Assembly: GCA_000004985.1 (NCBI GenBank)
Contig: GG738865.1
Direction: 5' to 3' (one strand)
DNA length: 64,000 nt
Origin: Naegleria gruberi
Lineage: Eukaryota
The translations under genes were made by a program, and so were the position numbers. The notes under the pieces are model-generated. The model made no database searches. It was not told the DNA's origin and saw only the letters and a program-made list of their open reading frames with translations. Below, piece by piece: positions 39,040 to 51,812 of the stretch (the stretch's first letter is position 1; every line of letters starts with the position of its first letter).

Positions 39040-39714
39040 TTTTTTTTTAATAATTTCAAAATAAATTAAAGATAATTTAATTATTATTAAATATTCAATC
39101 AAATTATTAATGTATTAACTGGTCAACCGCAAGAATGAACCATTTCGAGAATTTCAACAAATGTGATAACCCAGATGTGTAATGTTTCTTTTAAAGCGAT
39201 AAGGGTGAATATTCATATTTGAAGCTTCGGAAAATTTCGAAATTTAGCAAACTCAACATCAATTATGAAACCTGTGAAGTCTCTTCTTCCTCAACCTTCC
39301 AATAAATAGCTTACTCATCTGTGAAACTGTTCCTTTCTCAATGATTTGGTTGAATATTACCATCACAACAATATTGAGATCAACTGATAAATGATCCACT
39401 TCAGCTCCCTCTATGTATACGGATCAATAAGCTGATTTAATATTAAACAATTCAAAAACTCCTAATGTTGTGGCCTATGAATATTGTACGCTTATGCCTG
39501 CACCTTGCTTGTTCTTTCAGGAAATTTCAACAAAAAGCAACGCTCAATTTTAGCCCATTGCCTAGTGCACGCTCTCACTTCACGCCATCAACAACCGATT
39601 GGTTCGGACATGTACCGTCGCTTAAATCCCCTGGCTTGAATCTTTAATTTGCTATTAAAAAAAAACTACCACACCTGCTCTTTGTTGCGCTTCTCGTTAC
39701 TACACAGAGAGAAA

Positions 39715-41856
39715 ATGACTGTCAGTCGTGGTGAGGATACACAATTGCTGCTTCAACAGCAAGATCAGAATAATCTCTCTTGGGATGAAATCAAACGTTT
39801 ATTGCAAGATTCGGATGCTTTCCAATTGTCAAGTACCAAAGCTTGGTCTCAAGTTTTAATGACAATTGCCTTCCTTACTCTTGGTATTGTTGCTGCTGCC
39901 ATGTTTCCATGGTATTTACTTCCAATCAGTTGGTTCTTTGTTGGCTTGTGTGCCAGTGGTTTGATGGGTGTTGCTTATGCTTGTAGTGAAAATAGATTTT
40001 TCAATCAAAAGACAATGCCAAGTTGGGTCAATGATTTGGTTGGTATGATTTGCATGTTGCCATTGCTTTATCCATTTGAAGCTTTTAAGACCTTGGCAAA
40101 CAAGTCAGAAGAAGAAAAATCACAAAATGTCAATCAAGAAGATGAAGGTTTTGTTATGAAAGCTTTGGCTTTTGTTTTGAAGAGTCCATTGTGGTTTTTG
40201 AGTTCAATCTTTGATTGGTTCAGAGCTAACATTTATTTTGAAACTAAGAAGAGTATTGTTATCAATGCAGTTGTTCTCTATGTATTTGCTGCTGCATTCT
40301 TCTCTTTGATGGTTTACTTTGTTGGTTTGTGGGGATTGGTCAAGTTCTATGTTGCTCCACTTATTGCCTACCATTTGATCAACTCTACTTTTATGAAGGT
40401 CAATGATGCTGATGCTAAGAAGAATACCATTACTCATTTCCCATCTATTATTGAATTCTTGACTAACTATGCCAACCATTCTTATAGAATCAAGTTGAAG
40501 TGGAACAAGAAGGCCAATAATAACAATGAAACAATTACTCAAAACTTGAAGGAAAAGTTGATCAAGGTTGTTCCAAACTATAACTGGAATAAGGCTAAGA
40601 ATGCTCTCTGTGAAAAGTTTGGTAAGAATTTGGAAGGTATTGGTGGTACTACTTTCTTCTCTGATTTGGGAAAGACTTTTGAAAATGAAGTTGATTTGAG
40701 AAATATTGACTGGTTCATCACCATTTACTTGATTGGATCCGTTGTTGGTACTATTTATGGTGTTATGACTTGTGCTTTCAACTGGAAGACTTATGTTTTG
40801 AGCTTTGTTGGATATTACATTGCTGGTATTGGTATTACTGCTGGTTATCACAGAGTTTTTGCTCATCGTTCCTGTAAGGCAACATGGCCAGTTAGAGTTT
40901 TCTTAATGTTACTCGGTACAAGTGCTTTCCAAGGAAGTGTTGTTTCTTGGTCAGCTGATCACCGTAGACACCATCAATATGTTGATACTGAAAGAGATCC
41001 ATACAATATTAAGAACTCTTTCTTCTATGCTCACATGGGATGGTTGATGTGGAAGAGAGAAGTTGATACTACAAATGCTAAGGATTTACTTTCTGATCCT
41101 GTTATCAAATTCCATCATGAATATTATCCATATTTGGCTGTCTTTTTGGGATATTTGTGTCCAATGCTGATTGCTGGTTTATGTTGGGGCGATTATTATG
41201 GTGGCTTCTTCATCGCAGGTGTCTTGTCAAAGACTTTCCTCCAACATTGTACTTTCTTTATTAACAGTTTGGCTCACTCTTGGGGTGTTTCCACTTTCAA
41301 TGACGATCACACAGCTTGTGATTCATATATGGTCAGTTTGTTCACTTTTGGTGAAGGTTATCACAATTTCCATCACACATTCGCCTACGATTACAGAAAT
41401 GGTGTTCGTTGGTATCACTATGACCCAGGCAAATGGCTTCTCTATATGTTCTCTCTCTTTGGCATGACCTATGATTTGAAACGTTGTGATCCAATTCACT
41501 ACGAAAAGGGTAAACTTATCATGATGCAAAAGAGAATCGATGAAGAACAAAAGAAGATTGATGAAGAAAAGAAACTTTATGATTGGGGTACTCCTCTTGA
41601 AAAGTTGCCAACCAAATCATATGAAGAATTCCAAAAGGATTGCAAGACCAAATCTTTAATCATTATTGATAATGTTGTCCATGATGTCACTAACTTTATT
41701 GGTGAACATCCAGGTGGTGAAACTATCTTGAAAGCTTATCTTGGTAAGGATGCCACTAAGGCCTTCAAGGGTGATGTTTACTTGCACACTAACGTTGCCA
41801 AGAATATTTTGGCTCAAATCAGAATTTACAAACTTGCTCCCCAAAAGAGTGATTAA
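39715..41856 (+). CDS. Delta-9 acyl-CoA desaturase with C-terminal cytochrome b5 domain and a long N-terminal extension
   Basis: The three His boxes HRVFAHRS, HRRHHQ and HNFHHTF are present, and the C-terminal cytochrome b5 heme motif EHPGG follows. This is the fungal OLE1-type architecture. About 350 aa precede the first His box, including extra hydrophobic segments and an Asn-rich insert. The first ATG is at 39715, and the antisense ORF 40204..40866 is spurious. Confidence 0.85.
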   Translation: MTVSRGEDTQLLLQQQDQNNLSWDEIKRLLQDSDAFQLSSTKAWSQVLMTIAFLTLGIVAAAMFPWYLLPISWFFVGLCASGLMGVAYACSENRFFNQKTMPSWVNDLVGMICMLPLLYPFEAFKTLANKSEEEKSQNVNQEDEGFVMKALAFVLKSPLWFLSSIFDWFRANIYFETKKSIVINAVVLYVFAAAFFSLMVYFVGLWGLVKFYVAPLIAYHLINSTFMKVNDADAKKNTITHFPSIIEFLTNYANHSYRIKLKWNKKANNNNETITQNLKEKLIKVVPNYNWNKAKNALCEKFGKNLEGIGGTTFFSDLGKTFENEVDLRNIDWFITIYLIGSVVGTIYGVMTCAFNWKTYVLSFVGYYIAGIGITAGYHRVFAHRSCKATWPVRVFLMLLGTSAFQGSVVSWSADHRRHHQYVDTERDPYNIKNSFFYAHMGWLMWKREVDTTNAKDLLSDPVIKFHHEYYPYLAVFLGYLCPMLIAGLCWGDYYGGFFIAGVLSKTFLQHCTFFINSLAHSWGVSTFNDDHTACDSYMVSLFTFGEGYHNFHHTFAYDYRNGVRWYHYDPGKWLLYMFSLFGMTYDLKRCDPIHYEKGKLIMMQKRIDEEQKKIDEEKKLYDWGTPLEKLPTKSYEEFQKDCKTKSLIIIDNVVHDVTNFIGEHPGGETILKAYLGKDATKAFKGDVYLHTNVAKNILAQIRIYKLAPQKSD

Positions 41857-42082: not shown

Positions 42083-43420
42083 ATGAGATTCGTTAAGGAA
42101 CACCTTGAGGTGATTACTTGTTACATTCCTTCTGCTCATGAAATTACCTCCACAATTGAAAGCTTTGACGAATTGAAACTGTGTAAGGATCATTTTCCTC
42201 CCAACACTTGTTTCAATGTTTTTTGGTTTAATCAGAAATCTTGGGCTGCCCCAATATGCAGGTATATTAGTGAATATTTTGATACTTTGAAGGAATTATC
42301 TAGTGCCAAAGAGGGTTCAATGGCTGTAGTTAGGTTGTGTGCATTGGACAAACAACGCGAATCCTCTCTACCAAAGAAGGTTGTAACATCAGGATCTGGT
42401 TTTTATATGCTTCCCAATTTGGTGATTACTAATTGCCATGTTAATGAAAAGATTGGAACAAATCCTTGCTTTGCATTTAGTAATGCATGGAATATTGGTT
42501 ATTTTGATGATGCTCTTAAACAAGTAGAGCAACTTCCAGAAAAGAAGAGATTATGTTTTTCAGGACAATTATTGAAACTAACTCCCTACGAAACCAAGTT
42601 CAAACAAACAAAAATATGGACAGGAATTGATGCAATTACTGGAGAGATTGGAGACTTTTCATTCTTTGATTTTTCTGCTGTCCTATTCACAGGCAAACCA
42701 AATAATGTGATTTTCATACCTTCATCAACAGTATTGCAACCAGGAGATGAAATTATTACTCTTTCCTATCCTGGTGATGAAGAAAACACTTCACCATTAA
42801 AAGATTATGCAAACTATGCTAGTTGGGCACCCAGTGAATTGGTTATGAAAAGCAATATCTTTAATGGTTATGGAACTTTGTGTGCAAGTTTCGGCAAAAT
42901 TTTACATCCTTTCAGAAACATCAATGATGAATGGGAGAAGGACGAAGAGTTCAGGTACAACTCTTCCAATCAAGAGTGTCTAGCTAGCTCTGAATGTCTA
43001 TTTTTTGGCAGCTCTGGAGGAGTTATGATTTCCAAATCATGCCAAGTGCATCATGTTAATAATTTAACTCTTGTTGAATTTCATGCCATTCATGTTGGAG
43101 GAGAATTTGTTAGATGCAATGATTGCTTAAGAAAACATAGTGTTGCCATGAGGGAGTTTTGGGAAGATAATCACAATTCAGATCAACGAATTAAAGTTGA
43201 CTGTCAACCACAAGATTGGAGAATTTGTGAAAAGTGCTTGAATGATTCAGATCTGAATTTCAATAATCCATTATCGTATTCAAATAGTATATCAGTTCAT
43301 TCGAAGCCATTCGTTGAGTTTTTTGAAATGATTATTCTACCAGAATTGAAAAAATTGATTAATGTTTCAGATGTTTCTTCACTTGTTGAATATTGCCAAG
43401 AACATGGGATTAATTATTGA
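42083..43420 (+). CDS. Trypsin-like (chymotrypsin-fold) serine peptidase domain protein, no signal peptide, Cys-rich C-terminus
   Basis: ..SGSGFYMLPNLVITNCHV.. supplies the His motif and ..CLFFGSSGGVMI.. the GxSGG serine motif. The C-terminal part contains CNDCLRKH...CQPQDWRICEKC, which may bind zinc. Confidence 0.5.
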   Translation: MRFVKEHLEVITCYIPSAHEITSTIESFDELKLCKDHFPPNTCFNVFWFNQKSWAAPICRYISEYFDTLKELSSAKEGSMAVVRLCALDKQRESSLPKKVVTSGSGFYMLPNLVITNCHVNEKIGTNPCFAFSNAWNIGYFDDALKQVEQLPEKKRLCFSGQLLKLTPYETKFKQTKIWTGIDAITGEIGDFSFFDFSAVLFTGKPNNVIFIPSSTVLQPGDEIITLSYPGDEENTSPLKDYANYASWAPSELVMKSNIFNGYGTLCASFGKILHPFRNINDEWEKDEEFRYNSSNQECLASSECLFFGSSGGVMISKSCQVHHVNNLTLVEFHAIHVGGEFVRCNDCLRKHSVAMREFWEDNHNSDQRIKVDCQPQDWRICEKCLNDSDLNFNNPLSYSNSISVHSKPFVEFFEMIILPELKKLINVSDVSSLVEYCQEHGINY

Positions 43421-43491
43421 ACTGGTCAATTTATTTAATTTCTGATTATAAATAATAGTTTTATTATCAGCTTTCAGAATGTTGTAATCTC

Positions 43492-44232
43492 ATGAAATTA
43501 ATGCTAGCGCAGTCCAGTTCAACCAATCAGAAAAAAATGTCCCAACAGCAAACACAGCCCATCCACCAAGTGAGAACTTTTCTCTCACCTCTCTACGTTT
43601 TACTTTACAACAGATTCAAAAATGAAACTGTAAAATTGACTAACCAACAAAACGAATGCGAACACATTTTACAACAAACTCTTGCATTCACACATTATTT
43701 TCACCCATCAAAATTGAATAGATTTTTACACTTGTTGACCATTATTCCATTTTTTAGTGGATTATGGTTAATGTTTGGATTTTTAACAAGATTTACAACT
43801 GGATTGGAATTGACTCTGCCATTGATTTATTTGTGGAGTGTTTTATATGTGATATTTTCAATGGGAATTGATAGAATTGTTCCATATTTTTTGACATTTA
43901 TTTGTTTGGCTATTTCCTTATTTGTTAAATCAATTGTTTGCTTGAATAGTGGAGATCCAAATAGTCAATCATTTACAGTTTTATTCAATGCAGTTGGTTG
44001 TTTGTTAATTGCCTTAATTTTCCAAATCATTATAGGACATATTTTGATTGATGACAGAACTCCAGCATTTCTCTTACAAGAAGCATTTGTGATTACACCA
44101 ATTTATATGATCATGTCTTGTTTATTGATGGACAATCCACTTGTTGAATATTTACCTGAACTCAAAAGAGAAATTGAAACAAATGCAACAAGAGAAAGAT
44201 TTCACAAATTTGCAAGATTTAAAAAGACATAA
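43492..44232 (+). CDS. Hypothetical multipass membrane protein (246 aa)
   Basis: The ORF starts at an ATG and has four to five hydrophobic helices. No domain is recognised. Confidence 0.35.
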   Translation: MKLMLAQSSSTNQKKMSQQQTQPIHQVRTFLSPLYVLLYNRFKNETVKLTNQQNECEHILQQTLAFTHYFHPSKLNRFLHLLTIIPFFSGLWLMFGFLTRFTTGLELTLPLIYLWSVLYVIFSMGIDRIVPYFLTFICLAISLFVKSIVCLNSGDPNSQSFTVLFNAVGCLLIALIFQIIIGHILIDDRTPAFLLQEAFVITPIYMIMSCLLMDNPLVEYLPELKREIETNATRERFHKFARFKKT

Positions 44233-44516
44233 CTGCATGTTCTTTTCCCCAACAGATTACAATTCCAAAAACACCCAATTGATTATCTCAATAAAGTTCT
44301 TAGTAGTACCGTTTTATTTTCCCCAGTGACTGTATTTACGGTACTACTAAGAAATTGGGAGGATTGACACAACTTGATAATATATTGAAATCTAATTTTT
44401 TGAATGATTAGCACGGTTATTATTTTGGTCCGATATTATTGTAAAAATTCTTAATTTGTGAACAAATTTGTAACATTCATGGACATTGACGCGTTTCAAG
44501 GAAGATTCAAAAAAAA

Positions 44517-47500
44517 ATGCATCCAAACCATGCAACACCCATCCATCAGCCACATTGTTTTTATTTGGTCTTGTCGATTCTAATCTTCTTTTCATCATTT
44601 AGTTTGGCAAATAATGTGGAATTTTATATTCACTCCAGGATTGGACAAGATTCTCCCACATGTGGAATGATGGAAAGTTTACCATGTAAAACAATTCGAT
44701 ATCCTATTGATAATTTAATGAATAATACAAATTCAGGAAATAATATTCTAATTAAATTGATGAATAATTGGATAGGTGATTGTATTTTGTTTAATAATGA
44801 GAATGTGACTATTGATAGCATTCATTTTATGGGAACGAATCGATTGGTCAACTTGGAATGTAGTGCGGATCAGAACCAAGTCAAAATACCATTGGTTAGA
44901 TTTTCAAATTTGAATTTGGATTTGGTAATGTTTGGAGTTAGTCAATTGGAAATTTTCAACTGTACAATAGTTGATTTTGTGGTGAATGATATTCGGAGAA
45001 GTTTAATTCTGGATAATATACAAGTAGGAACAGAAAATTTGAAACAATTGCTTGAAAAAGATTCGAATATCGATTTGAAAAAGGTTATATTTAATATTTT
45101 CATTGAACTTGGATCAATAGATACGAGCAGTAAGGAAGTTATTGTAAGAAATTCACATATTATTGGCTGTAATTTATATGTTGGATCTACACTTTCGAAT
45201 GGTTCGTTGCTAGTTGAAAATTCCACATTTGAATATTCTCTTTTAGATTTAACTAATGGTTTAGGATACACTCCAAAATCGGTCCCTAGACCATCATTTT
45301 ATATTGCCAGTTCCAAATTTTATAGGTCATCCATTCAAGCACGTGAAGCACTTTCTGTTACTATTCAAAATTGTGAACTCATTCAAAATATTCCAAACAA
45401 ATTGGCAATTGTACTTTCATTAATACCCAATTCCATTTATGCAGCATTTTCAGTTACTTCCTCTGCAATCTGCAACGTATTAGTGTCAGCGTCTGTATTT
45501 TCCAATTGTCAATCAGTTGGTGCAATGTATTTAGAGGGAACTGGTATCAATGCAGAAGTAGAATGGTCACATTTTAAAGATAATTCGAATGTTAAGGGAG
45601 GAGCAGCTATTAATTTACAAACTATTTATAATCTATTTGCTCATAATACAATATTTGAGAATAACAAGCAAGTTTTAGATTCGAGTGAAAGTTTATCAAA
45701 TATTAAGGCAGACGAAAGAGGAGGCGGAGCTATTTTACAATATCAATCCCTATTAACAACAGAATCATGTATTTTTATTAACAATGAAGGAATTACAGGA
45801 GGTGCAGTTCTCAATTTTCAAGCTCATAAATACAAAAGTAGTGTAGATGTAAGTAGTTTCGTTAAGGTTGGCCTAATTGACCAAAAATTAATCAAAAATA
45901 GTATTTTTATAACAATACAGCATCTTATGGAGGTGCTTGTGCATCTATTGATTTTACCTATTCCTCTAGTGTTTATATATACTCATCAACATTTGAGAAA
46001 AACAAAGCCACCAAATATGGTGGAGCTATTTTCACATTGAAAACCGTCTTGAATCTTGGATTTCAAACATTTTCAATCAATAATAATTATGCAGGAATAT
46101 CTGGTGGAGGTGCCTATACTGTTGGAACGAAACAAGAGAATGGCGTACCTTTGATAGATCGGTGCAAAGACAATTACAATGGAAATGGAAAGCTTTCAAA
46201 TCATGATGCATTCCCAGAGATTATCAGTTTAAGAATTCCAGTAAAACAATTTCTATCAATGAGTAATGATAGCAATAGCAATGCTAAAATGTTGGAAACA
46301 TCATTTGGAGAGAAATTAGTGCTCAATTTAGATTTGTTTGACAATACATATGGAAATGATAATATTCCAGTGAATTCGTTCACTGAAATGGAACTCTCTG
46401 TGGAAACAAAACCTTCCAAGGACATGACATTTGAAATTCATCAGCCGACCACCAATGAAATTGATGGAATTCTATATTCTAGATCTACCAATGAAAAATT
46501 AAGAGGAAATGGAACTTTAATATTTACAATCAAGTCATCTCTATTCAAAACTGGAACATTTTCATCCCAAATAGAAATTGCTGTGACCCCAATGGAATGT
46601 AAACCTTGGTTCTCTCTTCAAGCGGATATGAAAAAGATTGTAAATGGTGGTTTTGCATACTCATGTGAATTTAACTCATACCTTATCATTCCATTTGTAG
46701 TGTCATCTGTACTTATTGTAGGATGTATAGTTTTTACTATTATTGGAATTGTTTGTTTCAAATTTTATGGAATGAAGAGTAAAATTAAAGTTCTTCATAA
46801 GAAGGAACAAGCAGAGGAAGAGTTGACTCAAAAATTATTGGATTTACAATCACTATATACATCTGAATTAGAATCCAAATATTCCATTAAGAATTGGCTA
46901 ATCAAGATTGAGGATATCAAGGTTATAAAAAAGATTGGTGAAGGAGGAATGGGAGTTGTCTATCTAGCTCTGTAAGTTTAATTCATGGACTCTATAATCT
47001 TATTCAATTATGTGAAATTTAGTTGGAAAAATGTTGAAGTTGCTTTGAAGACAATTAAATTAGAGGAAGATGATATGGATTCTAGTGAATTTGAACATGA
47101 ATCTTCAATGCTTTCATCTATAAGACATCCAAATGTTGTTAACCTTTATGGAGTGGTCTTATCAGATCAATCAAAATTCATGGTAACTGAATATATGAAT
47201 GGAGGATGTTTGGAAAAATTAATTTATGATTGTAAAATGAAGAAGAAACATATCAATCTGAGAGAAAAAGTTTCAATTCTTATTGGAATTGCAAATGGAA
47301 TGAGTTATTTACATGGTGGAAAGGATAATTGTATGATTATTCACAGGTGAGTTGATTTCGTATATTTTTAACTAATCAATTCAATCAGAGATTTGAAACC
47401 AGGAAATATTCTACTATCCAATGATTTAACACCTAAAATTGCTGACTTTGGTTTATCAACACTTTCCAATCAAAGCTCAAACACAACCAAAACACAGCAT

Positions 47501-48022
47501 ATTGGAACATTGCTCTACATGTGTCCAGAGATTCTATTAGGAAAAAATTACAATGAAAAATCAGATGTCTATAGTTTTTCTATTATAATGTGGCAATTGT
47601 TATTTGATGAGACAGTACTATTCCATCAAAACTATACAACAAATCCAAAAATTTCTACCATCATGTCAAAACAGGAAATTGAAACATTTTCATCACTTGC
47701 CAATCAAAGCTCTCTATTGTTTATTCCAAAATTGATTTCTGAAGGATTACGTTTACCAATTCCAACCTTGCCAATCAATTCTCATTCACAAATTATGAGA
47801 ATGTGGATTAGAGAATATTTTGTTGTGGAAGATTTCAAATTTACCAATCAAGGGAATGTGGGAAATAATCTTGGACTAGTTGATGATCCATTAGATAGTT
47901 ATATGAAAGCACTCGATGGATTATTTTCCATTTTAAAGATGGCATGGGCTGATGATTTCAATAATCGACCATCTTTTACTGAAATTTCAGTGGAATTGAT
48001 GCATATTAAACAAAACTTGTAA
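44517..48022 (+). CDS. Receptor-type protein kinase: signal peptide, parallel beta-helix repeat ectodomain, TM helix and TKL/Tyr-like kinase, four exons
   Basis: The exons are 44517..45848, 45902..46971, 47023..47346 and 47389..48022, separated by introns of 53 bp (GTAAGT..AAATAG), 51 bp (GTAAGT..ATTTAG) and 42 bp (GTGAGT..AATCAG). The ectodomain carries repeated ..GGGAILQY.., ..GGAVLNFQA.., ..YGGACASIDF.., ..KYGGAIFTL.. and ..GISGGGAYTV.. beta-helix units with many NxT sites. A TM helix (LIIPFVVSSVLIVGCIVFTIIGIVCF) follows. The kinase motifs GEGGMGVVYLALW..VALK, HRDLKPGNILL, DFGLS and YMCPE are all present. Confidence 0.7.
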
Positions 48023-48150: not shown

Positions 48151-49530
48151 CTATTTCATTGGATGTGGTTTTCTAGTTTCATATTTACAACCCCATTTAT
48201 CCACCTCAACTGGCTTCAGAAAAATACAATCGTCAAGCAATTGATGGGCTTCATCTGAGAAGACATTTCGTGACAGATTCAGCTCTTTCAAGTCGAGCAT
48301 ATTTCCAAATGTAAGTCCAATAATTCCAACTTCATTAATTTTGTTATTGGAAATATTGAGATATGTCAAATTATACAAATATTCACTAGAGCCAATTTTT
48401 AAACAGCCAACATTTCCTATTCCGGGATCACTGTTGCTTACATTCAGGGATGTGACATTCCTCATAATTGGTGATGTTATTAATGCTTCAAACCCAGATC
48501 CAATTCCATTATCCGCTAAGGAGAGATAGGTGAGGTTTCTGATAAGTCTATTGGAAGCAAGTGCTATAGCTTCCTCTTTTTTAATTTCACAGGAGTCAGC
48601 TATTAATGTTTTCATTGTTGACATGATATGACTTGAGAATAGTTTGACCAATCCTTCGTTTTCAATTAATAGTCGAGAAATATCCAAGTATCTCAATTTA
48701 GTTAAAAATGGATTGTTAGCTATTAAACAAATGCTGCTTTCAAAATACTCATAAGTTTGTGGTTGAACAGAGAGGTAAGTTAATTGAGATAAATTCTCAT
48801 TTTTGGAAAAGTATTCAAATACCTCATCATTCTCTTTTGTTACTCTAAATTCCAATGCTTTCAACTTGAAAGTGTCAACAAGAGCAATAATTGACAGTTT
48901 TTTCAGAGGTGAATGAGCATAAAACTCTTCCAATTTCTTCAAGTATGGACTATTTGTCATTGCCAAAATGCCATCATTTGTAAAATCACCAGAAACATGC
49001 AAAACTCTCAAATTTTTCATTCCCTCATTTTGGCTCAATATCACCAATGAATCATCACTAATACTATTAAATGAAAAATTCAAAGATTCCAATCTTAGAG
49101 TTGTTACAATAATCTTGAAACTCTCTGCATCACATCCTGTTCCAGTCAAGTTCAATTCTCTCAGTAAATGTGAATTAGCTCCTTTACAAAGGGAATTCAT
49201 TGATTTTCCATTCAAATTAACAAGAGAAGTTAGACGAATTTTCAATGATGAAACATTGTAATATTTCAAACATCCATCACGGAGTTTTTTCTTCAATTCT
49301 TTGTTTTTTGCAAAGTGAATATCTATTTTCAGGCCACATTCGTATTTGATAAATTGACGCCACTGGCTACAAACTTTCGAACAAGAATCGACAAGAAATT
49401 TCGTATTTTCTGCAGAATTGATGAAGGAAAAGATGAGTATACAAACATCGTTGGAAAATTTCTGAGGTTCAGCGTGTTCAATACTGTTTAGGTCACTTTC
49501 GGCAAGAGCTTTAGTATTTTGTGATCCCAT
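48151..49530 (-). CDS. F-box / LRR (RNI-like) protein
   Basis: The first ATG is at 49530 (MGSQNTKAL..). An F-box-like segment (FSNDVCILIFSFINSAENTKFLVDSCSKVCSQWRQFI) is followed by about 14 LRR-like units (..LNLTGTGCD.., ..LRVLHVSGDF.., ..LTYLSLADNGIG..). The longer track ORF includes 5' leader read-through. Confidence 0.55.
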   Translation of the reverse strand: MGSQNTKALAESDLNSIEHAEPQKFSNDVCILIFSFINSAENTKFLVDSCSKVCSQWRQFIKYECGLKIDIHFAKNKELKKKLRDGCLKYYNVSSLKIRLTSLVNLNGKSMNSLCKGANSHLLRELNLTGTGCDAESFKIIVTTLRLESLNFSFNSISDDSLVILSQNEGMKNLRVLHVSGDFTNDGILAMTNSPYLKKLEEFYAHSPLKKLSIIALVDTFKLKALEFRVTKENDEVFEYFSKNENLSQLTYLSVQPQTYEYFESSICLIANNPFLTKLRYLDISRLLIENEGLVKLFSSHIMSTMKTLIADSCEIKKEEAIALASNRLIRNLTYLSLADNGIGSGFEALITSPIMRNVTSLNVSNSDPGIGNVGCLKIGSSEYLYNLTYLNISNNKINEVGIIGLTFGNMLDLKELNLSRNVFSDEAHQLLDDCIFLKPVEVDKWGCKYETRKPHPMK

Positions 49531-49925
49531 TTTTTTATGAATTTTCTTGATGGCTTTTAATGGAATACCTTTTTTGTCAGAATCTATCCTAAAGCACAAA
49601 CTTTCAATTTCTAAATAAATAGTAATGGTAAATAAGATAACCAAGTTTCATATGTTGTAACAAATTTATAAATATTTAGAAAGCAACAATTATCCCTTAA
49701 TAAGTTTAGTTAATGTTTCATTCGTCTTGAACCTCTTTTTGTGAGTCATCTTTCTGAAAGGAATTGATTTTAACTAATCTCTTTTAGAATTGATAACGTA
49801 ATTTCCACAAACACATTCAAGCAGAAGGATGCTTTCTGATAATTGAGCACTGGTAGCAAATTTCAAGATTTCATTCATGATATCCTTTAGAGGCAATTAA
49901 GGCGCCAAAAAATTATTTTAAAAAA

Positions 49926-51812
49926 ATGAGTAAAAGAAAAATTGGTCCTCTATTAACAAAATCGGCAACCCAACGATGGGAAGAGGCTTTCGAAGCAGTG
50001 GCTGATGACGATATCAAATTGGATATGGTACTGCAATACGTTGATAAATTGCAGGAAAGTTCCGAATTAAATTTCACGAAAACAGAATGGACAAAAACAC
50101 AATTCACCACCAAGTTTTGCTCCTTGTTGAATATTGTTCCCAAACCAGAAAATGAAAATCCTCTATGTGTTGAAGAATCACCCTTCCTGATCAGCCTTCT
50201 GTCATTGTATCAACAATTTCAAAGCAACAAGTTATCTGAATCCATTTCCTTATTTAAAGAATGTCAACAGAATATGATAAAAGAATTTGCACTTCCACCC
50301 CATAACAATACAGAGAAGGCACTCTTTTCTTTATTGTCTGCACTTGAACGATTGGAAAGAATTTCATTCGAGCGCAATTTAGGAGAGGTGGTTGTTTCTG
50401 GTGCAATGTTTTCGTTGTTAGATGTAATCTGCACACTAAAAGGTCACAAACAAAACGAGTAAGTTATGTTACTTGTTCATCACATTCAATTTTGTAGAGA
50501 CAAGCAAAACACAGTGATATTAGATGACAAAATCAAAAGCTTCAATGTAAGAAATGATGGCCTTATTCAAACTGAAAAAGACTATGTATATTGTAGAAGA
50601 GAGGATACATCTTTTGATGATCGCGTGGATTGGGAAGATTTTGGCATTGATGCCTATAAACTGATTATTTCAATGAAGAGCCAGCTGAAACAAAACATGA
50701 ATACAGTATTTATGTGCCAAGAAGAAATTAACAAATATAGCAAAGTCTTGGGGTTATGTTATACCAAATTAGATACATTCGTTTTTATATTAGATGCACA
50801 AATTAATAAGAAAGGAAATGAAAACATCCCAGAATATTCTCTCTACTTTCAAAGGTTTGATATGAAGTTGCATGGAGCGATATTATTGTTTACGTATATT
50901 ATGCAATTTATTTTGCAATACGTTCCTTCTAATATTTTCACAACCATCACTCCTTTCAGACCAGCCAATACACCAAATAAGCTTTTGATACCAACTGGGC
51001 AATTACTATCTGATATTCTCAGTTCAAAGAGGTGTAGTAAAATTTCCAAACACGGAAAAGTGGTGTTAAAAAAACACGAAGACGAAAAGAACGAAAGAGT
51101 CAACTATGTCCTACAATCAAACTCTTTCCTGAAAGTGGTTTCACCTGAAGAGAAAGAAATCATTCTGAAATTGATTAGTAATTCATGTTACTGCATGTAC
51201 TTGCCCCAAATTCTAAATGTGTATAAGAATGACGTAGAGTTTGAAAAGTTGAACAGTCTCCCAGAGAAAATGTCTGAAAAAGATATAATGGCCTTGGCAA
51301 TAGATATTTCCATAGCATTGAACCATCTCCATGGCCACAATATTATTCATAGAGATGTTAAGCCCGATAATATAATGACTAGATCACTCAGTGATCCATC
51401 AAGCTTCATGTGGTTTGTATTAATTGACTTTGGGTTAAGTTTAGAGTTTGTGGAAAAGAATGGAATATACTTTTGCAAAAATTCAGGAACTGAAATCAAC
51501 GAAAACTTAGGTACCAGTATTTTTAAAGCCCCAGAAGTTGCTGCTTCCCAACCATACACTGAGAAATGTGACATTTACTCATTGGGAGCCTCTTTATTGT
51601 ATCTGAAAAATGAATCAGTCTTTTTACAACTGTGGAGACAGGGTATTAAGAACATTCCAACAAACATGTTGAAAACTCTAGATTGGGATTACACTGAATT
51701 TGGTGATATCATTAGGGATATGGTGGCTGATGATCCAAAAATTAGACCTTCAGCAGAAAATATTGAAAATCGCCTTTCAACGTTATTCCAAAACTGCATT
51801 AACCTTGATTGA
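49926..51812 (+). CDS. Protein kinase with an about 290-aa N-terminal non-kinase region, two exons
   Basis: The exons are 49926..50458 and 50498..51812, separated by a 39-bp intron at 50459..50497 (GTAAGT..TTTGTAG) in phase 2. The C-terminal kinase core has HGHNIIHRDVKPDNIM, DFGLS and APE..DIYSLG. No canonical GxGxxG is visible, so the kinase may be atypical. Confidence 0.55.

What the first reader, a model, noticed from the sequence alone, without database searches (positions are those of the whole stretch)
44517..48022. Single-pass receptor kinase with a pectin-lyase-like parallel beta-helix ectodomain, assembled from four exons
Two track ORFs that overlap by 4 nt are in fact joined by a 53-bp GTAAGT..AG intron at 45849..45901. 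The C-terminal ORF then continues through two more short introns into a complete TKL/Tyr-like kinase (GxGxxG-VALK, HRDLKPGN, DFG, CPE). The ectodomain is a long run of GG[AG] beta-helix coils with dense NxT sites, followed by one TM helix. Receptor kinases are uncommon outside animals, plants and a few protist lineages, and a beta-helix (adhesin or carbohydrate-binding-like) sensor coupled to a kinase is an unusual pairing.
Basis: partly seen in the sequence, partly recalled or inferred. Interest (0 to 1): 0.6.

Follow-up and report, generated by a model that had tools for sequence, protein, structure and literature searches.

The report
Naegleria beta-helix receptor kinase gene
This is a real four-exon gene of the amoeboflagellate Naegleria gruberi that encodes a cell-surface receptor kinase whose outer part is a bacterial-adhesin-like beta-helix; the public annotation mis-assembles it and leaves out the kinase, but a correctly built sister gene is already in the databases.

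Summary
Exons 44517-45848, 45902-46971, 47023-47346 and 47389-48022 (+) splice into a stop-free 1119-aa protein. It has a signal peptide, a ~670-aa ectodomain, one TM helix, a conserved juxtamembrane segment and a complete protein kinase domain.

All three introns (53, 51 and 42 nt, GT..AG) are supported by homology. The N. gruberi paralogue has introns at the same three positions and phases. A more distant homologue shares intron 2 only. Another is one uninterrupted ORF. No homologue has an indel at any junction.

The kinase is TKL-like with a Ser/Thr-type catalytic loop (HRDLKPGN), so it is not a tyrosine kinase.

NxS/T sites are not dense (8 against 11.9 expected). Single-pass kinases are not rare in protists.

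The public model of this gene is a chimera that lacks the kinase. I found the beta-helix-plus-kinase pairing only in close relatives, and no paper describing it among those I could search. Function is inferred, not shown.

The parts
44517..45848 (+). Exon 1 (aa 1-444): start codon, signal peptide, N-terminal cap and most of the beta-helix
   Evidence: ORF; spliced translation. The start Met and the 'IHQP' N-terminus align with paralogue P0271.
44517..44609 (+). Predicted signal peptide (aa 1-31, hydrophobic core FYLVLSILIFFSSFSLA)
   Evidence: Hydropathy peak at aa 12-34; coordinates. The paralogue has an equivalent Leu-rich N-terminus. Cleavage is inferred, not tested.
45849..45901 (+). Intron 1, 53 nt, GTAAGT..AG, phase 0
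   Evidence: The paralogue has a 43-nt intron at the same position and phase (L003:2775-2817). Homologues P0126, P0124 and P0275 read straight through with no indel.
45902..46971 (+). Exon 2 (aa 445-801): last beta-helix coils, membrane-proximal domain, TM helix, juxtamembrane segment, kinase G-loop
   Evidence: Both strain differences in this exon are synonymous in the proposed frame.
44934..46129 (+). Right-handed parallel beta-helix (aa ~141-521; interrupted by intron 1)
45573..46123 (+). Six PMP-type coils with alternating FxxN and GG[AG] motifs (aa 353-518; interrupted by intron 1)
   Evidence: Motif positions. This is the region matched by nearly all of the 521 HMMER hits, which carry Chlam_PMP/Beta_helix domains. 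The window protein's own Pfam Chlam_PMP score is 17.5, below the 20.6 cut-off.
46292..46669 (+). Membrane-proximal beta-sandwich domain (aa ~575-701) with two family-invariant cysteines (C677, C699)
   Evidence: All-beta segment in the AlphaFold model, pLDDT ~60-80. Weak Foldseek matches to Ig-like/IPT folds. Invariant Cys. The fold assignment is tentative.
46679..46759 (+). Single transmembrane helix (aa 704-730), followed by a Lys-rich cytoplasmic flank
   Evidence: The only strong internal hydropathy peak (KD up to 2.83); coordinates. 'KFYGMKSKIKVLHKK' after the helix fits the positive-inside rule (inference).
46760..46915 (+). Juxtamembrane segment (aa 731-782)
   Evidence: Its last 50 aa are 90% identical to paralogue P0271, against 42% for the ectodomain and 75% for the kinase.
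46916..48007 (+). Protein kinase domain (aa 783-~1115; interrupted by introns 2 and 3), with an ~80-aa insert before subdomain XI
   Evidence: Pfam PK_Tyr_Ser-Thr E=3.2e-50 and Pkinase E=4e-50. Catalytic motifs located. Best solved relatives after a two-kinase-domain EGFR chain are CTR1, SymRK and TAK1, with Src/Abl-type tyrosine kinases scoring in the same range.
46972..47022 (+). Intron 2, 51 nt, GTAAGT..AG, phase 2 (splits the Leu codon CT|T between the G-loop and VALK)
   Evidence: Same position and phase in the paralogue (L003:3861-3907) and in the distant homologue on L004. Absent in P0126 and P0275, which read through with no indel.
47023..47346 (+). Exon 3 (aa 801-909): VALK, alpha-C Glu, hinge, HR of HRD
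47347..47388 (+). Intron 3, 42 nt, GTGAGT..AG, phase 2 (splits the Arg codon of HRD, AG|A)
   Evidence: Same position and phase in the paralogue (L003:4232-4275). Absent in P0126, P0275 and P0003, which read IIHRDLKPGN or IMHRDLKPGN continuously.
47389..48022 (+). Exon 4 (aa 909-1119 plus TAA stop): catalytic loop, DFG, activation segment, C-lobe
   Evidence: The C-terminus aligns to the last residues of P0271 and P0126.

Best explanation
The locus is one protein-coding gene of Naegleria gruberi with four exons. It encodes a type-I membrane protein of 1119 aa.

Shown by sequence and structure prediction, in order from the N-terminus:
- a signal peptide
- an extracellular right-handed parallel beta-helix of the Chlamydia-PMP repeat type, including six FxxN/GG[AG] coils
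- a small beta-sandwich with two conserved cysteines next to the membrane
- one TM helix
- a very conserved juxtamembrane segment
- a protein kinase domain with every catalytic residue intact and a Ser/Thr-type catalytic loop, TKL-like

Inferred mechanism: the beta-helix acts as a non-enzymatic binding surface for an extracellular ligand. The most likely ligand is a polysaccharide or other repetitive surface on prey bacteria, on the substratum or on other cells. Ligand-driven clustering or dimerisation is passed through the single helix and the juxtamembrane segment. The cytoplasmic kinase domains then trans-phosphorylate and phosphorylate Ser/Thr substrates.

The gene belongs to a small family: at least one in-genome paralogue, FM172, and three environmental homologues. 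In this family the sensor evolves much faster than the signalling half.
For: Organism: near-identical hit to an N. gruberi predicted protein.

Gene model:
- stop-free splice product
- no indels at the junctions in homologues
- all three intron positions and phases shared with the paralogue on L003, although the intron sequences and lengths differ (43/47/44 nt against 53/51/42 nt)
- intron 2 shared with the distant homologue on L004
- homologue P0126 is a single 3120-nt ORF covering ectodomain, TM and kinase
- strain comparison shows indels only outside exons, and synonymous changes in exon 2

Kinase: Pfam E=3e-50; motifs. The best solved relatives after a two-kinase-domain EGFR chain include CTR1, SymRK, TAK1 and MLK1, with Src/Abl-type tyrosine kinases scoring in the same range.

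Beta-helix:
- 521 HMMER hits centred on aa 331-521
- of the ten best non-self hits scanned, eight carry Chlam_PMP, Beta_helix or both, with scores up to 266 bits

Binding rather than catalysis:
- the 28 family-invariant ectodomain columns are Gly, Asn, Phe, Ala, Ile, Val, Ser, Tyr, Pro and Cys, plus a single Asp that lies outside the helix
- none of the lyase, hydrolase or epimerase motifs I searched for is present

Receptor-like evolution, window gene against paralogue: ectodomain 42%, kinase 75%, juxtamembrane 90% identity.
Against: - No transcript or protein evidence could be consulted, so splicing is inferred from homology only.
- The window protein itself scores below Pfam's Chlam_PMP gathering threshold (17.5 against 20.6) and gets no Beta_helix hit.
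- The AlphaFold model rests on only five sequences. Mean pLDDT is 68.5, and the first ~110 ectodomain residues are unmodelled.
- Foldseek against the PDB gave no match with E<=0.001.
- Ligand, dimerisation, kinase activity and substrate specificity are all untested.
- The absence of invariant charged residues is judged from five sequences only.
Confidence: 0.8

Rival explanations
1. There are two or more separate genes: a secreted or membrane-anchored PMP-like surface protein ending near 46975, and an independent cytoplasmic kinase. This is roughly how the public annotation and prokaryote-style gene callers cut the region.
For: The public N. gruberi model P0001 ends at ...GVVYLAL, the stop read through into intron 2. 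No database protein identical to the kinase part was found. Metagenome gene calls split relatives in the same way: P0123/P0273/P0272 and P0124/P0003.
Against: - The upstream ORF would end 8 residues after the kinase G-loop, and the 'kinase gene' would lack its G-loop. Neither makes a functional unit.
- P0126 and P0275 encode ectodomain, TM and kinase in a single ORF.
- The paralogue's public model P0271 joins them.
- The intron positions are conserved.
Confidence: 0.03
2. The gene model is right, but the ectodomain is an active carbohydrate-acting enzyme (lyase, hydrolase or epimerase), like most solved pectin-lyase-fold proteins. The protein would then be a membrane-tethered enzyme fused to a kinase rather than a ligand-binding receptor.
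Against: - No invariant Asp, Glu, Lys, Arg or His lies inside the helix across the five family members.
- The searched catalytic motifs are absent.
Confidence: 0.1
3. The protein is mainly an adhesion molecule for substratum or prey attachment. Its kinase domain regulates cytoskeleton or turnover locally, rather than acting as a ligand-gated signalling receptor.
Against: Nothing separates adhesion from sensing at the sequence level. An intact RD-type kinase and a 90%-conserved juxtamembrane segment argue that signalling output is under strong selection. The two roles are not exclusive.
Confidence: 0.25

Closest known systems
N. gruberi paralogue NAEGRDRAFT_80536 / 'Uncharacterized protein FM172' (XP_002674732.1, UniProt D2VMG6; P0271)
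   Same: Same architecture from end to end: signal peptide, PMP-like beta-helix, conserved Cys pair, TM helix, juxtamembrane segment, TKL-like kinase with the same insert. It is 54% identical overall and has the same three intron positions.
   Different: The ectodomain is only 42% identical. The paralogue is uncharacterised. Its public model drops one 30-aa coil through an over-long intron 1.
Chlamydia polymorphic membrane proteins and other bacterial/archaeal PMP-repeat beta-helix proteins (Pfam PF02415 Chlam_PMP, PF13229 Beta_helix)
   Same: Alternating FxxN and GGA(I/L/V)-type motifs on a right-handed parallel beta-helix. Significant HMMER similarity, E down to 3e-26.
   Different: There is no autotransporter beta-barrel or other bacterial anchor. 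The helix is followed instead by a eukaryotic TM helix and a kinase. This protein is sub-threshold for the Pfam repeat model.
Entamoeba histolytica transmembrane kinases (EhTMKs) and other protist single-pass TMKs (PMC2880585, PMC10463195)
   Same: Protist type-I membrane proteins with a lineage-specific ectodomain, one TM helix and a Ser/Thr/Tyr-superfamily kinase. They form multigene families.
   Different: The ectodomain type differs. I recall the EhTMK ectodomains as Cys-rich repeats, not beta-helices, but I did not check this in the papers held. The lineage is also different: Heterolobosea against Amoebozoa.
Plant RLK/Pelle receptor kinases (for example SymRK and the cysteine-rich RLKs) and the Raf-like kinase CTR1
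   Same: Among the best-scoring kinase-domain relatives by sequence. The RLKs share the single-pass receptor layout.
   Different: Only about 31-42% identity over about half of the query. The ectodomains are unrelated (LRR, DUF26, malectin). The Naegleria kinase has an ~80-aa C-lobe insert. Membership of the RLK/Pelle clade was not tested by phylogeny.
Animal receptor tyrosine kinases
   Same: Overall logic: ectodomain, one TM helix, juxtamembrane segment and kinase, with presumed activation by dimerisation.
   Different: The catalytic loop is HRDLKPGN and the P+1 region is GTLLYMCPE, the Ser/Thr type. It is not HRDLAARN with the tyrosine-kinase P+1 motif (motif rules from established kinase knowledge).

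Membership tests
Eukaryotic protein kinase superfamily (active kinase) | Pfam kinase models above the gathering score | tested here: met
   PK_Tyr_Ser-Thr 171.3 bits (cut-off 23.1); Pkinase 171.1 bits (cut-off 31.7).
Eukaryotic protein kinase superfamily (active kinase) | Catalytic residues: GxGxxG, VAIK Lys, alpha-C Glu, HRD Asp, catalytic-loop Asn, DFG, APE | tested here: met
   GEGGMG 790-795, VALK 807-810, EFEHE 823-827, HRDLKPGN 908-915, DFG 928-930, CPE 954-956. All are conserved in the homologues that include the kinase domain; P0124 ends just after the G-loop. Enzymatic activity was not tested.
Tyrosine kinase (TK) group | Catalytic loop HRDL(A/R)A(A/R)N and the TK-type P+1 loop | tested here: not met
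   The loop is HRDLKPGN and the P+1 region is GTLLYMCPE. These are Ser/Thr-type signatures.
Tyrosine kinase-like (TKL) group | Clusters with TKL kinases in kinome HMM classification or phylogeny | tested here: inconclusive
   Leaving aside an EGFR chain that holds two kinase domains, the best solved relatives are CTR1, SymRK, TAK1, MLK1 and TNNI3K, all TKL. The best named database relatives are plant RLK/Pelle kinases and amoebozoan SH2-kinases. However, TK structures score almost as well, and no kinome HMM set or tree was available.
Single-pass (type I) receptor kinase architecture | N-terminal signal peptide, one TM helix, extracellular N-terminal domain, cytoplasmic C-terminal kinase on one polypeptide | tested here: met
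   Hydropathy profile, spliced ORF, and the single-ORF homologue P0126. Actual topology and localisation cannot be tested here.
Chlamydia PMP repeat (Pfam PF02415) | Score above the Pfam gathering threshold | tested here: not met
   17.5 bits against a cut-off of 20.6 for the window protein. Homologue P0124 passes (24.4), P0126 does not (19.2), and P0271 has no hit.
Chlamydia PMP repeat (Pfam PF02415) | Repeated, alternating FxxN and GGA(I/L/V) motifs | tested here: met
   Six FxxN/GG[AG] pairs between aa 353 and 514, spaced 26-41 residues apart.
Chlamydia PMP repeat (Pfam PF02415) | Significant sequence similarity to bona fide members | tested here: met
   phmmer E=3e-26 to P0125 and 2.5e-15 to P0130. 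These score 174 and 266 bits on Chlam_PMP, and 144 and 257 bits on Beta_helix.
Chlamydial Pmp autotransporter family (type V secretion) | C-terminal autotransporter beta-barrel translocator | tested here: not met
   No autotransporter domain appears in the Pfam scan. The C-terminal half is a TM helix plus a kinase. Only the repeat module is shared.
Pectin lyase-like right-handed parallel beta-helix fold | Three-stranded right-handed coils superposable on solved members | tested here: met
Pectate lyase, polygalacturonase or alginate epimerase enzymes | Conserved catalytic acid/base residues and signature motifs | tested here: not met
   No DPHD, NTD, GHG, RIK or WIDH-type motifs. No invariant charged residue inside the helix across the five family members. 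This is a coarse test.

The most novel reading that the evidence does not exclude
Heterolobosean amoebae independently built a receptor-kinase family whose sensor is a PMP-type beta-helix. That module is otherwise known as a bacterial and archaeal surface adhesin. The family would be used to recognise polysaccharide or surface patterns on prey bacteria, or on the substratum. This would be a further independent origin of the 'ectodomain-TM-kinase' design, with a sensor class not reported for any receptor kinase. The fast-diverging ectodomains would mark a prey- or environment-recognition repertoire.
Probability: 0.35. Interest if true: 0.55.

Novelty: new variant of a known kind. Interest (0 to 1): 0.35.

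Why it matters
Single-pass receptor kinases arose several times in eukaryotes by joining a conserved kinase to a lineage-specific sensor. What free-living protists sense with them is largely unknown: about 40% of protist TMK non-kinase regions have no annotated domain (PMC10463195).

This locus gives a clean example from Discoba, a deep and little-studied branch. Its sensor class, a PMP-type beta-helix, is not described for receptor kinases in the literature I could search.

There is also a practical point. The reference annotation of this gene is a chimera of two genes and lacks the kinase, and the paralogue's model drops a repeat. Kinome or receptor surveys based on the public N. gruberi proteome will therefore under-count this family.

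The gene is otherwise an ordinary, intact protein-coding gene. No function has been shown.

Tried and rejected
- Ectodomain against PDB sequences: no hit at E<=1.
- Word-indexed protein search with the ectodomain: only the gene itself and a strain variant.
- Profile search with a five-sequence family alignment: only non-kinase PMP/Beta_helix proteins, and it did not even recover the alignment's own members, so it says nothing about family size.
- AFDB50 fold search: library not installed.
- Locus look-up for the paralogue P0271: not on record. I used the >=90%-identical metagenome contig L003 instead.
- Naegleria genome paper (Cell 2010): not held, so neither the meaning of 'FM172' nor the paper's account of receptor kinases could be checked.
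- Literature searches found nothing on this architecture: Naegleria + receptor kinase, Naegleria + PMP, pectin lyase fold + transmembrane kinase, and beta-helix + receptor-like kinase.
- The TMK survey PMC10463195 does not mention Naegleria, and no supplement is held.
- Bacterial origin of the sensor by gene transfer: not settled. The closest non-kinase relative, P0125, lies on a contig with BIR and LRR_8 ORFs, which does not look bacterial.
- Rejected: 'dense N-glycosylation', tyrosine-kinase specificity, and the public gene model.
Full report
**What is there**

The window is AT-rich (33% GC). An ectodomain query hits 'predicted protein [Naegleria gruberi]' at near identity, so the organism is the amoeboflagellate N. 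gruberi.

The mechanical ORF list shows four same-strand ORFs: 44517-46040, 46037-46975, 46985-47350 and 47393-48022.

Three segments can be removed:
- 45849-45901 (53 nt, GTAAGT..AG)
- 46972-47022 (51 nt, GTAAGT..AG)
- 47347-47388 (42 nt, GTGAGT..AG)

Removing them gives a 3360-nt reading frame with no internal stop. It encodes 1119 aa and ends at TAA 48020-48022.

**Are the introns real?**

No transcript data could be consulted, so I tested the joins by homology. Five independent lines agree.

1. In an alignment with four relatives (P0271, P0126, P0275, P0124) there is no gap at any of the three junctions. The joined sequences are SSVD|YFYNNTASYGGA, GVVYLAL|WKNVEVALK and MIIHR|DLKPGN. They align residue for residue with the relatives.
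2. P0126 is encoded by a single uninterrupted 3120-nt ORF on a metagenome contig, L001:1241-4360. P0275 (801 aa) likewise carries ectodomain, TM and kinase in one called protein. Sensor and kinase are therefore one polypeptide in relatives.
3. The in-genome paralogue was read from contig L003, which is at least 90% identical to N. gruberi XP_002674732.1. It has introns at exactly the same three positions and phases. Their sequences and lengths differ (43, 47 and 44 nt). Splicing them gives a stop-free protein to the end of the contig.
4. A more distant homologue on L004 (33% identity in the ectodomain, 51% in the kinase) shares intron 2 at the same codon position. It lacks introns 1 and 3.
5. 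A strain variant on L002 is 98.8% identical. All its indels lie outside the exons, and both of its exon-2 substitutions are synonymous in the proposed frame.

The start codon is supported by the paralogue's aligned N-terminus.

**The public annotation is wrong here**

The NCBI/UniProt model for this locus is P0001 (1019 aa). It differs from the model above in four ways:
- It takes aa 1-299 from the unrelated upstream ORF 42083-43420.
- It jumps over ORF 43492-44232 and enters the receptor gene at 44637.
- It uses an over-long intron 1 that deletes 33 aa.
- It terminates at ...GVVYLAL, the stop codon inside intron 2.

A search with the cytoplasmic part found no identical database protein; the best hit was 51% identical. 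The kinase exons therefore appear to be unannotated.

The paralogue's public model (P0271) also loses one 30-aa coil to an over-long intron.

**Anatomy of the protein**

Hydropathy windows above 1.6 cluster in two segments, an N-terminal signal-peptide-like core (aa 15-31) and one strong TM helix (aa 704-730); one isolated window at aa 296 also passes. The TM helix is followed by a Lys-rich flank. Together these predict a type-I topology.

The cytoplasmic part contains a kinase domain, with Pfam PK_Tyr_Ser-Thr E=3.2e-50 and Pkinase E=4e-50. All catalytic motifs are present:
- GEGGMG
- VALK
- the alpha-C Glu
- HRDLKPGN
- DFG
- CPE

HRDLKPGN and the GTxxYxxPE P+1 segment are Ser/Thr-type signatures, not tyrosine-kinase ones. 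That rule comes from established kinase knowledge.

The top-scoring solved chain is an EGFR construct that holds two kinase domains. After it, the best solved relatives are CTR1, SymRK, TAK1, MLK1 and TNNI3K. The best named database relatives are plant RLK/Pelle kinases and amoebozoan SH2-kinases. The domain is therefore TKL-like, though tyrosine kinases score nearly as well and no kinome classifier was available.

An ~80-aa insert precedes subdomain XI. It is shared by the family.

**The ectodomain**

Pfam gives only a sub-threshold Chlam_PMP hit, 17.5 bits against a cut-off of 20.6.

An exhaustive HMMER search of 1.84 billion representative proteins found 521 proteins with E<=0.001, and 37 with E<=1e-10. 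Almost all match aa ~331-521. Of the ten best non-self hits I scanned, eight carry Chlam_PMP, Beta_helix or both, with scores up to 266 and 257 bits. The profile search gave the same families.

In the window protein this region holds six alternating FxxN/GG[AG] pairs, spaced 26-41 residues apart. That alternation is the hallmark of PMP repeats.

An AlphaFold model was built from a five-sequence family alignment. Mean pLDDT is 68.5. Block pLDDT over ectodomain residues 110-490 runs from 57 to 98, about 82 on average. The first ~110 residues are unmodelled. The model shows repeating three-strand coils.

The last ~125 ectodomain residues form a beta-sandwich. It has two family-invariant cysteines just outside the membrane, and weak Ig-like/IPT matches. 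That assignment is tentative.

**How it probably works**

Shown: the domain order, an intact catalytic site, a beta-helix sensor, and a conserved family.

Inferred: the helix binds rather than cleaves. Three observations support this:
- The 28 invariant ectodomain columns are structural residues (Gly, Asn, Phe, Ala, Ile, Val, Ser, Tyr, Pro, Cys), plus one Asp outside the helix.
- No lyase, hydrolase or epimerase signature is present.
- The nearest sequence relatives are adhesin-type repeats.

Between the two N. gruberi paralogues the ectodomain is 42% identical, the kinase 75%, and the last 50 juxtamembrane residues 90%. A fast-evolving sensor on a constrained signalling module is what a ligand-recognition receptor would show.

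The most likely mechanism is ligand-induced clustering of a single-pass receptor, then trans-autophosphorylation and Ser/Thr signalling. The ligand is unknown. Polysaccharide or other repetitive surfaces of prey bacteria or substratum are the obvious candidates. An adhesion role is not excluded and is compatible with this.

**Comparison with what is known**

The architecture is that of the single-pass transmembrane kinases. A cross-kingdom survey found these to be the major TMK type in protists, at about 0.4% of proteomes, with about 40% of protist non-kinase regions unannotated (PMC10463195). Receptor kinases in a protist are therefore not surprising in themselves. Entamoeba TMKs are the classic protist example (PMC2880585).

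What is unusual is the sensor. Among the 150 listed hits of the ectodomain search (521 in all), only close relatives of this gene carry a kinase. Four literature searches found no description of a beta-helix or PMP ectodomain on a kinase.

The protein is not a member of the chlamydial Pmp autotransporter family, because it has no beta-barrel. It shares only the repeat module.

A full-length paralogue is already in the public databases as an uncharacterised protein, NAEGRDRAFT_80536 'FM172'. The architecture is therefore present in sequence databases but, as far as I could find, undescribed.

**Verdict**

It is a new variant of a known kind: a protist single-pass TKL-like Ser/Thr receptor kinase with a PMP-type beta-helix sensor. 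It belongs to a small family so far seen only in Naegleria and related environmental contigs. Function is inferred. Interest is moderate.

Noticed in passing
window 42083-46975 (+): The public N. gruberi gene model P0001 is a chimera. It takes aa 1-299 from ORF 42083-43420, skips ORF 43492-44232, joins the receptor gene at 44637 and stops inside intron 2. The kinase exons 47023-48022 appear to be unannotated.
   Followed up: yes
L003:2775-2817 (paralogue of the window gene): The public model of the paralogue FM172 (P0271) lacks one 30-aa beta-helix coil (VVRCYFFNNSALIGGAIFSQYAKQFQSSSN). The contig supports a 43-nt intron at the same place as window intron 1, so the public intron is too long.
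   Followed up: yes
window 44505-44513: The A-run just upstream of the start codon differs in length between strains (L002 against the window). In the other strain this lets an upstream ATG run into the ORF, which explains the false N-terminal extension of P0002.
   Followed up: partly
window 39649-41856 (+): ORF of 735 aa with a fatty-acid desaturase domain followed by a C-terminal cytochrome b5 domain (a fusion desaturase).
   Followed up: no
window 48151-49644 (-): ORF of 497 aa with ribonuclease-inhibitor-type leucine-rich repeats (LRR_6). It converges on the 3' end of the receptor kinase gene.
   Followed up: no
window 49926-51812 (+): A second, unrelated protein kinase ORF (50466-51812, Pkinase E=4e-26). 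An adjoining 178-aa ORF (49926-50462) lies just upstream and may be an upstream exon of the same gene.
   Followed up: no
window 42083-43420 and 43492-44232 (+): Two ORFs (445 aa and 246 aa) with no Pfam match.
   Followed up: no
L005:8001-12722: The closest non-kinase PMP/Beta_helix relative (P0125, 1573 aa) sits on a 44.5-kb metagenome contig next to BIR-domain and LRR_8 ORFs. That suggests a eukaryote or giant virus rather than a bacterium, and bears on where the Naegleria sensor module came from.
   Followed up: no
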